Positions 1 to 584 of a stretch of DNA of 59,507 nt are shown here, in pieces. The notes under the pieces are model-generated. The model was not told where the DNA came from. It ran no database searches and was given only the letters and a program-made list of their open reading frames with translations. The first letter of the stretch is position 1. Each line of letters begins with the position of its first letter. Position numbers and translations under genes: made by a program. The stretch is from Bacilli bacterium (GTDB taxonomy: Bacteria; Bacillota_I; Bacilli_A; RF39; UBA660): the NCBI GenBank assembly GCA_017622175.1, contig JAGARQ010000009.1, positions 1 through 59,507 of the forward strand, given 5' to 3'.

Positions 1-86
1 ATTGCCAATCTAATTTTATCAATATCACTTAAATTATCATATTTTTGAATTAAGTCTATAACTTTTTTTGAATTTTTATCTAATAA
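1..86 (-). CDS. 5' part of a hypothetical protein running off the window (MLDKNSKKVIDLIQKYDNLSDIDKIRLA...)
   Basis: ATG at 86-84 with GAGGT RBS at 99-95; 28 open codons to the window edge; not in the ORF track. Confidence 0.55.
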
Positions 87-140
87 CATAATATACCTCT
101 TTTCTTTTATTTATAAGGGTTATAAGCCACTTGTAAGTAA

Positions 141-584
141 TTATTTGTGTGTATACAGTATTCGTAGAACTCTCTGTCTCATTCCACCAGACAAACTAGA
201 AGGATACATATCTTTAAAATCATATAAACCATAAGTCTTTAATAAAGAAATAACATAATCATATGATTCACTATTTAAAGCACCTTTTGTTTCAAGCCCA
301 ATTAGACAATTATCTAAAATAGTCTTCCAAAAAAACAAGGAATCATCTTGTAGCATATAACCAATACTAATATTGTTTTTTAATATGATTTCACCACTTG
401 TTTTATTTTCTAATCCAGAAAGAATAGATAAAATAGTAGACTTACCACAACCACTAGGGCCAACAATTGAAATAAATTCATTTTTATAAACATTAAAAGA
501 AACATCTTTTAAAGCAACTATATCATTTTCTCTAGTATGATAAATTTTATTTAAATTAATTACTGTTAATAATTTATTATTCAT
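141..584 (-). pseudogene. Truncated/interrupted ABC ATPase (SsuB/TauB/YtlC-like), N-terminal part only
   Basis: Walker A GPSGCGKST, Q-loop YMLQ and signature LSGGMRQRV, then 8 unrelated residues and a stop; no Walker B, D-loop or H-loop; start overlaps the stop of the upstream SBP gene. Confidence 0.85.

What the first reader, a model, noticed from the sequence alone, without database searches (positions are those of the whole stretch)
1..584. The next gene of the same operon is also cut, directly after the ABC signature: probable second intervening element
Seen in sequence: the ATPase reads normally to LSGGMRQRV (about nt 168), then LRILYTHK-stop, with no Walker B. I see no Walker B coding in 1-167. 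Instead an unrelated ORF with its own RBS starts at 86. Inference: a second insertion begins near 167 and the 3' part of the ATPase (plus the permease) lies left of the window. The junction does not show the TAATG arm motif, so a different recombinase is likely. Two excisions would then be needed to build one transporter, a DNA-level AND gate.
Basis: partly seen in the sequence, partly recalled or inferred. Interest (0 to 1): 0.82.

Follow-up and report, generated by a model that had tools for sequence, protein, structure and literature searches.

The report
Mobile element splits transporter ATPase gene
An ABC-transporter ATPase gene at the edge of this contig really is cut in two by a mobile DNA element of a widespread serine-recombinase family, but it is an ordinary strain-variable insertion and not a demonstrated two-key DNA switch.

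Summary
On the minus strand, 584..168 encodes residues 1-139 of a NitT/TauT-type ABC ATPase. It ends at LSGGMRQRV, then reads LRILYTHK-stop (167..141), with no Walker B in 1-167. The window is the whole of contig C61, so nothing lies to its left. The missing 3' half (residues 138-249, 99% identical to an intact allele) and the permease sit at the very end of contig C25. Both contigs share AGAGTT at the break.

Relatives show what lies between the halves. It is a 10.5-12 kb integrative element with a conserved 132-aa terminal ORF, variable cargo (P-type metal ATPases), mobilisation genes (Mob_Pre, coupling protein) and a 532-545 aa large serine recombinase with a DUF4368 tail next to the other junction. 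CAAAGAGTT repeats flank it.

The element end is 96-98% identical in three hosts whose ATPase DNA is 68-70% identical. Conspecific strains carry the intact gene. One such strain has the intact ATPase while the binding-protein gene is still interrupted, so the two insertions are independent.

The element body and its recombinase are absent from this bin. The "AND gate" is literally true (both genes are broken), but regulation is unsupported. Verdict: new member of a known kind, modest interest.

The parts
168..584 (-). Host part of the ABC ATPase gene (NitT/TauT type), codons 1-139, Walker A to signature motif LSGGMRQRV
   Evidence: ABC_tran profile 1-117/137; aligns to the intact 249-aa allele P0001; a contig of run X4 fits from 168 onward and continues before 168 with the C25 sequence.
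141..167 (-). Read-through tail LRILYTHK plus TAA. This is element DNA, not ATPase.
   Evidence: among the 52 cut homologues the tail appears in different frames (8-aa and 30-aa versions), so the conservation is at the DNA level and not in the peptide.
147..167 (-). Left-end arm of the inserted element (CTACGAATACTGTATACACAC in gene sense). Inferred to be a recombinase half-site.
   Evidence: the arm fits the consensus NNNNYGAATAYWGTRTASACAC directly after GAGT in 14 of 401 family genomes. The half-site function is inferred.
168..173 (-). Core AGAGTT, shared by this junction and by the last bases of contig C25. In relatives a 9-nt CAAAGAGTT stands at both junctions. The crossover is inferred to lie inside it.
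3..89 (-). First 29 codons of the element's conserved terminal ORF (132 aa in relatives), co-oriented with the operon. The RBS AAAGAGG is at 102..96.
   Evidence: 92% identical to the G037 copy over 36 aa; 1545 database cluster representatives; alignment.
1..167 (.). All that this assembly holds of the inserted element. The contig ends here at a fork in the assembly graph.
   Evidence: in the source run X1 a 173-nt unitig covers 1-173 and a second unitig shares only 1-30; no other contig of G000 continues it.
580..993 (-). Context: 3' part of the substrate-binding protein gene of the same operon
   Evidence: tblastn with three intact relatives. (weak match to the NMT1/THI5-like family).
994..6316 (.). 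Context: the first intervening element, in the binding-protein gene, with a 307-aa serine recombinase at 4462-5385. This is the subject of another finding.
   Evidence: 5' part of the binding-protein gene at 6928..6317..

Best explanation
A site-specific integrative, probably mobilisable, element has inserted into the ATPase gene of a NitT/TauT-type ABC transporter operon. It inserted exactly in the DNA that encodes the end of the ABC signature motif (..ATGAGACAGAGAGTT|GCTTTAATTAGA..). The element belongs to a family driven by a TndX/TnpX-like large serine recombinase with a DUF4368 tail. The recombinase recombines an element site (right arm GTGTCTT..-CAAAGAGTT-left arm ..GAATAYWGTRTASACAC) with the host site, crossing over inside the shared AGAGTT. 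That leaves the 5' half of the gene fused to the left arm (window 584..141). The 3' half and the permease end up some 10 kb away, at the end of contig C25. The transporter is therefore off. Conservative excision would restore the exact intact allele that conspecific strains carry. Shown: the split, both halves, the precise junction, the insertion polymorphism, the spread between genera, and the gene content of complete copies in relatives. Inferred: that the G000 copy has the same body and an active recombinase, the crossover position, and reversibility.
For: (1) The two halves exist. P0001 residues 1-142 align to C61 584..159 (97.9%). Residues 138-249 align to C25 15744..15409 (99.1%). The permease follows on C25.

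(2) AGAGTT stands at both breaks.

(3) Complete copies lie between the two halves on single contigs. In G029:C9 the copy is about 10.5 kb and in G112:C6 about 12 kb. Both carry a recombinase with Resolvase, Recombinase, Zn_ribbon_recom and DUF4368 domains, and the two are 83% identical. In L042 the recombinase ends about 50 nt before the junction. CAAAGAGTT stands at both ends.

(4) Mobilisation and cargo genes are present: Mob_Pre and a P-type ATPase in G029; a coupling protein, AraC, ArsR and two heavy-metal ATPases in G112; a GNAT gene in L120.

(5) The element spreads horizontally. Its end is 95.8-97.6% identical among G000, G037 and L120, while the adjoining ATPase DNA is 68-70% identical.

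(6) The insertion is polymorphic. The same 90% cluster holds 7 intact 249-aa variants and 3 cut 147-aa variants. Contigs of runs X4 and X6 carry the uninterrupted gene. Both other species of the genus have an intact gene.

(7) The recombinase is 32-33% identical over 94-97% of its length to annotated TndX and matches the TnpX catalytic domain 2mhc.

(8) The IME review PMC5704250 (passages) says serine-recombinase IMEs integrate inside genes, disrupt dispensable genes and are flanked by very short repeats. It also says the Tn4451 enzyme integrates and excises without a directionality factor.
Against: The element body and its recombinase are not in the G000 bin. The best recombinase matches there are 24-27% identical paralogues. 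Its nature in this genome is therefore inferred from copies in other genera. The nearest of these (G037, L120) are themselves truncated by contig ends.

The Mob_Pre match in G029 covers only profile positions 96-142 of 196. A coupling protein was seen only in G112.

No circular form and no empty site was seen in the source run X1. Only contigs were available there, and contigs drop rare variants.

The 3' halves are still open and well conserved in every interrupted genome looked at (G000, G029, G112, L042). Cut forms make up 52 of the 120 closest clusters. Both facts would also fit a maintained, reversible switch.

The last base of C25 (T before AGAGTT) matches neither the host allele (G) nor the three relatives' right arms (A).
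Confidence: 0.85

Rival explanations
1. Programmed DNA switch or two-input gate. The element (alone or with the one in the binding-protein gene) is kept by the host and excised under a particular condition, which rebuilds the transporter operon, as in heterocyst or sporulation intervening elements.
For: Both genes of one operon are interrupted in G000, and independently in G112, where the binding-protein gene is cut at a different site. Excision would restore the exact intact reading frame. The 3' halves are undecayed. The element's terminal ORF is co-oriented with the operon, with no promoter-like or terminator-like site between 167 and 89 on that strand, so host transcription could read into it. 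TnpX-type enzymes need no directionality factor (review passage).
Against: The two insertions occur separately. X4 has an intact ATPase with the first element present. Four of the 6 loci with the cut ATPase have an intact binding-protein gene. The element carries variable cargo and mobilisation genes and moves between genera. That is the opposite of a domesticated element. G032 holds a remnant with only recombinase residues 389-536, so that copy cannot excise itself. The first element's recombinase lacks the zinc-ribbon part. No cell differentiation is known to me for this group (recalled). No empty site was seen in the source run.
Confidence: 0.07
2. The inserted element is a prophage that uses a serine integrase.
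For: Serine integrases and Bro-N proteins are common in temperate phages (recalled). A Bro-N protein sits beside the recombinase in G029. The G037 copy has a DUF2201 VWA-like gene.
Against: The two complete copies are 10.5-12 kb. Among their ORFs scanned against Pfam, none matched a capsid, portal, terminase or tail family. The matches were transporters, regulators, Mob_Pre and a coupling protein. The junction pattern has 0 matches in the viral contig collection. The terminal ORF matches no PHROG.
Confidence: 0.04
3. Assembly or binning artefact: C61 1-167 is wrongly joined to the ATPase, or C61 and C25 come from different organisms.
For: The break is 167 nt from a contig end. In the source run no single Logan record has 31 or more letters on both sides of 167/168. 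The genome is a 66-contig bin with 3.3% contamination.
Against: The identical junction occurs deep inside longer contigs of other assemblies (G037:C50, G029:C9, G112:C6, L120). The exact 147-aa product is on 4 contigs, the longest 108 kb. An intact allele joins the C61 half and the C25 half at 98-99% identity.
Confidence: 0.02
4. Simple deletion or decay of the operon, with no 3' half left.
For: None beyond the truncated ORF itself.
Against: The 3' half and the permease are present and undecayed on C25.
Confidence: 0.01

Closest known systems
Tn4451/Tn4453 (TnpX) and Tn5397 (TndX) of clostridia: elements moved by a large serine recombinase with a DUF4368-type tail
   Same: The recombinase has the same four-domain architecture. 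It is 32-33% identical to annotated TndX and matches the TnpX catalytic domain. The element is small, with a MobV-type (Mob_Pre) gene and cargo. It has short flanking repeats. Excision is expected without a directionality factor (review passages).
   Different: Only about a third of residues are identical. The review describes Tn4451 as having low integration specificity. This family always sits at one nucleotide position of one orthologous gene. The cargo is metal transporters and not catP or tet genes. The 132-aa terminal ORF has no named family.
Site-specific serine-recombinase IMEs of streptococci, which integrate inside genes such as rumA (review PMC5704250, passages read)
   Same: They integrate inside a conserved, apparently dispensable gene, which is thereby disrupted. 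They have very short direct repeats, a single serine recombinase, and mobilisation genes without a transfer apparatus.
   Different: The target gene differs: here it is the signature-motif region of a NitT/TauT-type ABC ATPase. This target did not appear in paper searches. The hosts differ too: small-genome, low-GC gut bacteria whose nearest records are labelled uncultured Bacilli, Mycoplasma or Erysipelotrichaceae.
Developmentally excised intervening elements: nifD, fdxN and hupL elements of heterocyst cyanobacteria (PMC4874684, abstract seen in listing 62); skin and SPbeta of Bacillus subtilis (recalled)
   Same: A gene is interrupted by an element with its own recombinase, and conservative excision restores the frame. 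More than one interruption can affect one pathway.
   Different: Those elements are excised in a terminally differentiated cell and are fixed in the lineage. Here the insertion varies between strains, carries mobilisation genes and spreads between genera. No differentiation or trigger is known.

Membership tests
Integrative mobilisable element with a site-specific large serine recombinase | Encodes a large serine recombinase (Resolvase + Recombinase + zinc ribbon) | tested here: inconclusive
   Met in the copies of G029, G112 and L042. The body of the G000 copy is not in the assembly.
Integrative mobilisable element with a site-specific large serine recombinase | [quoted passage not shown] | tested here: met
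   All 9 junctions displayed are at the same nucleotide position. CAAAGAGTT stands at both ends in G029 and G112 and at the right end in L042. AGAGTT stands at both G000 breaks.
Integrative mobilisable element with a site-specific large serine recombinase | Mobilisation gene(s) (relaxase and/or coupling protein) but no full conjugation apparatus | tested here: met
   Seen in relatives only. G029 has Mob_Pre (partial match, E 1.1e-13). G112 has T4SS-DNA_transf (E 5.6e-37). These elements are 10.5-12 kb. Not testable for the G000 copy.
Integrative mobilisable element with a site-specific large serine recombinase | Moves between hosts; occupied and empty sites both exist | tested here: met
   The element end is 96-98% identical between hosts against 68-70% for the host flank. 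Intact alleles exist in conspecifics and in runs X4 and X6 and in congeners. Transfer itself was not observed.
Integrative mobilisable element with a site-specific large serine recombinase | Excises as a circle | not testable with these tools
   Only contigs, not raw reads, were available for the runs laid.
TnpX/TndX subfamily (Tn4451, Tn5397) | C-terminal DUF4368 domain and sequence kinship to TnpX/TndX | tested here: met
   DUF4368 at E 1e-6 to 3e-6. 32-33% identity to annotated TndX over 94-97% of the length. Match to 2mhc TnpX at E 5.8e-11. This is a distant relative, not a close member.
TnpX/TndX subfamily (Tn4451, Tn5397) | Low target specificity (Tn4451, as stated in the review passage) | tested here: not met
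   One copy per genome, always at the same position of the orthologous ATPase, in 14 of 401 genomes.
Programmed (developmental or conditional) intervening element | Fixed in the lineage and stripped of mobility and cargo genes | tested here: not met
   Polymorphic within the species, absent from congeners, and carries mobilisation and cargo genes.
Programmed (developmental or conditional) intervening element | Excision tied to a cell state or signal | not testable with these tools
   No raw reads, RNA or culture were available.

The most novel reading that the evidence does not exclude
The element family acts as a reversible on/off switch of a nutrient transporter. A TnpX-like recombinase that needs no directionality factor flips the gene between cut and intact states. 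The element's conserved 132-aa terminal ORF is transcribed from the host operon promoter only in the integrated state, and so couples element behaviour to the transporter's regulation. Where a second recombinase element sits in the binding-protein gene (G000, G112), the operon needs two independent excisions.
Probability: 0.06. Interest if true: 0.6.

Novelty: new member of a known kind. Interest (0 to 1): 0.3.

Why it matters
The finding documents an abundant family of mobile elements that crosses genera in uncultured small-genome gut bacteria. The terminal ORF has 1545 database clusters, and the cut form makes up 52 of the 120 closest ATPase clusters. The family has chosen the DNA encoding the ABC signature motif of one transporter ATPase as its landing site. 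This gives a defined recombinase and target-site pair that could be tested as a tool. It warns annotators that the many 147-aa 'ABC ATPases' in these genomes are insertion products. It explains why these bins break at this locus. It does not reveal a new mechanism.

Tried and rejected
The function of the terminal ORF could not be assigned. It has no Pfam family and no PHROG. The AlphaFold2 model from a 16-row alignment had mean pLDDT 50.4, so no fold search was run on it. The protein atlas gave only scores of 0.77-0.78, which are below any useful level.

A search for the rest of the element in G000 found nothing. blastn and tblastn with the 3.4 kb of the G037 copy found only window 1-167. No contig end overlaps the C61 start or the C25 end, and no right-arm-like motif lies near any contig end. 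The first 200 nt are not repeated elsewhere in the genome.

The search for related loci with P0001 returned mostly distant paralogues from unrelated phyla. Only L040-L042 were useful.

The metagenome scan for the 31-nt junction gave a single contig, L120, which is itself cut 1.1 kb into the element.

The viral collection had 0 matches to the junction pattern.

NCBIfam gave no match above a curated cut-off for the ATPase, binding protein or permease. The substrate therefore stays unknown; the proteins are SsuABC/Sao-like.

In read laying the source run X1 showed no contig of the empty site. This comes from contigs only and is no evidence of absence. No record in X1 has 31 letters on both sides of the junction. 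A single X6 'joint' 195->800 with side 28 was ignored as probably foreign.

The T at the last base of C25 was considered as a sign of the element's right arm. I rejected it as uninterpretable because it is one base at a contig end.

Supplementary files of papers were not consulted. Table 1 of PMC5704250 and any supplements may list further target genes of serine-recombinase IMEs that I did not see.

Full report
WHAT IS THERE. The window is the whole of contig C61 of a 1.43-Mb, 66-contig, roughly 28% G+C genome bin. On the minus strand an ORF runs from 584 to 141 (147 aa). It is an ABC ATPase with Walker A (GPSGCGKST) and the signature motif LSGGMRQRV. It matches Pfam ABC_tran over profile positions 1-117 of 137 only. 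After V139 (170..168) it reads LRILYTHK and stops at TAA (143..141). It runs off the contig after 29 codons.

THE OTHER HALF. A database search with the fragment found an intact 249-aa allele, P0001. The host-encoded part of the window's fragment differs from P0001 at one residue. Against the whole bin, P0001 residues 1-142 hit C61 584..159, and residues 138-249 hit C25 15744..15409 at 99.1% identity. That second hit is the last 337 bases of the 15,745-nt contig C25. The permease follows on C25 at 15461..14646. In gene sense, C61 reads ..ATGAGACAGAGAGTT|CTACGAATACTG.., and the C25 end reads T-AGAGTT-GCTTTAATTAGA... The gene is therefore split, not deleted, and both breaks carry AGAGTT. No other ATPase in the bin is closer than 37% to P0001, so there is no spare copy.

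WHAT LIES BETWEEN. The bin holds nothing more of the insert, but relatives do. In G029:C9 and G112:C6 the two halves lie on one contig, about 10.5 and 12 kb apart. Read in gene sense, both elements begin with a conserved ORF of about 132 aa, the one that starts at window 89. They continue with variable cargo. G029 has a P-type cation ATPase and a Mob_Pre protein. G112 has a type IV coupling protein, an AraC regulator, two heavy-metal P-type ATPases and an ArsR regulator. Both end with a large serine recombinase of 532-537 aa (Resolvase, Recombinase, Zn_ribbon_recom, DUF4368) and a Bro-N protein, just before the 3' half of the ATPase. The two recombinases are 83% identical.

In L042 a 545-codon open frame encoding the recombinase ends about 50 nt before the junction. 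The right arms read GTGTCTT(N9)-CAAAGAGTT-GC.TTAATC. The left arms read CAAAGAGTT-NNNNYGAATAYWGTRTASACAC. GTGTCT and AGACAC form an inverted repeat around the shared 9 nt. That fits a serine-recombinase site with the crossover inside AGAGTT; this reading is an inference. The recombinase is 32-33% identical to annotated TndX and matches the TnpX catalytic domain 2mhc.

IT IS MOBILE AND STRAIN-VARIABLE. Among G000, G037 and the metagenome contig L120, the first 167 nt of the element are 95.8-97.6% identical. The 417 nt of ATPase next to them are 68-70% identical, or 58-61% at the protein level. The junction pattern occurs once each in 14 of 401 genomes of the family (G000 included), spread over 12 of 214 genera, and the reversed control gives 0. 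It has 0 matches in the viral contig collection. Of the 120 best cluster representatives for the fragment, 52 stop right after SGGM(R/K)QR(V) and 68 run on with ALIRT. The tails of the cut forms come in several frames, so it is the DNA arm that is conserved and not a peptide. That list is biased towards cut forms, because the query itself carries the tail.

The 90% cluster of the window's protein holds 7 intact 249-aa variants and 3 cut 147-aa variants. It also holds the 112-aa C25 piece, a 92-aa member and a 266-aa member. Both other species of the genus have the intact gene. The terminal ORF has 1545 cluster representatives at E<=0.001, and the best 120 are at least 89% identical.

READS. 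All four runs laid were available as contigs only. In X4, from a different study, a 2222-nt contig fits window 168-1500. Before 168 it continues with the sequence of the C25 end. That is the uninterrupted ATPase, on a contig that also crosses 994 into the first element. In that strain, then, the ATPase is whole while the binding-protein gene is interrupted. X6 has two contigs of the uninterrupted form. In the source run X1 a 173-nt unitig (depth 45.5) covers 1-173 and an 8.4-kb contig (depth 46.8) covers 144-1500. A further unitig shares only 1-30. This fork explains why C61 stops at position 1. In X2 the element-end unitig is deeper (94) than the host contig (64). A minor contig joins the same arm to a different coding sequence for ..KYPSSLSGGMRQRV, so the element sits in the orthologous gene of another resident organism. 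No empty site was seen in X1, but contigs cannot show rare forms.

THE 'AND GATE'. It is true that in G000 both the binding-protein gene and the ATPase gene are broken. The binding-protein gene's 5' part is at 6928..6317 and its 3' part at 993..580, with about 5.3 kb inserted between them. Nothing indicates a designed pair, however. The insertions occur separately: X4, and 4 of the 6 loci with a cut ATPase (G037, G029, G032, L120) have an intact binding-protein gene. G112 is also doubly hit, but its binding-protein gene is cut at another position by a different 3-kb recombinase element.

The recombinase of the window's first element is a 307-aa form. It aligns only to residues 8-304 of a 520-aa relative and lacks the zinc-ribbon domain. 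G032 carries a remnant of the ATPase element with only recombinase residues 389-536, so decay does happen. The review of integrative mobilisable elements (PMC5704250, passages read) describes exactly this behaviour. [quoted passage not shown]

WHAT REMAINS OPEN. The identity and integrity of the G000 copy are unknown. The function of the 132-aa ORF is unknown. So is whether the element excises in this population. The ORF is co-oriented with the operon, and no promoter-like or terminator-like site was found between 167 and 89 on that strand. Read-through from the host promoter is therefore possible but untested. The transporter's substrate is unknown; it is SsuABC/Sao-like, and all matches fall below curated cut-offs. 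I found no paper describing this target site in searches. Supplements were not available.

VERDICT. This is a real split gene caused by a site-specific mobile element of a known kind.

Noticed in passing
window 994-6316: This is the first intervening element, in the binding-protein gene. It carries a serine recombinase of only 307 aa (4462-5385; Resolvase + Recombinase, no zinc ribbon). A 290-aa ORF with no family follows it (5433-6305). The element is present in run X4 on the same contig as an intact ATPase.
   Followed up: partly
L037 (G112:C6) 3076-7211: In another genus the binding-protein gene of the same operon is cut at a different codon (after ..VIGGRKG). The insert is a roughly 3-kb mini-element with a 521-aa serine recombinase and one 401-aa ORF. 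That operon is also doubly interrupted.
   Followed up: partly
L036 (G032:C9) 6183-7030: An internally deleted copy of the ATPase element. The terminal ORF is followed directly by a 150-aa fragment equal to recombinase residues 389-536 (71% identical to the G029 enzyme). This copy is probably immobile.
   Followed up: yes
L034 (G171:C1) 6159-19957 and L035 (G002:C1) 1424-1855: Homologues of the 132-aa terminal ORF (52-58% identical) lie in other elements with a serine recombinase and Mob_Pre-like genes. These elements are not next to the ATPase. The DNA match there covers only the ORF and not the arm, which suggests sister elements with other target sites.
   Followed up: no
G000:C29 55610-56353, C1 4669-5589, C43 870-2090: Three further serine-recombinase genes in the bin, 24-27% identical to the G029 enzyme. 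The one on C29 is at the very end of its contig. More such elements probably fragment this assembly.
   Followed up: no
window 134-182 in run X2: The element-end unitig is deeper (94) than the host contig (64). Minor contigs join the same arm to a different host coding sequence, so the same element occupies the orthologous gene of co-resident organisms in one sample.
   Followed up: partly
G000:C25 15745: The last base of C25 (T, gene sense, just before AGAGTT) is neither the host allele's G nor the A seen in three relatives' right arms. It is unexplained and may be an end-of-contig error.
   Followed up: no
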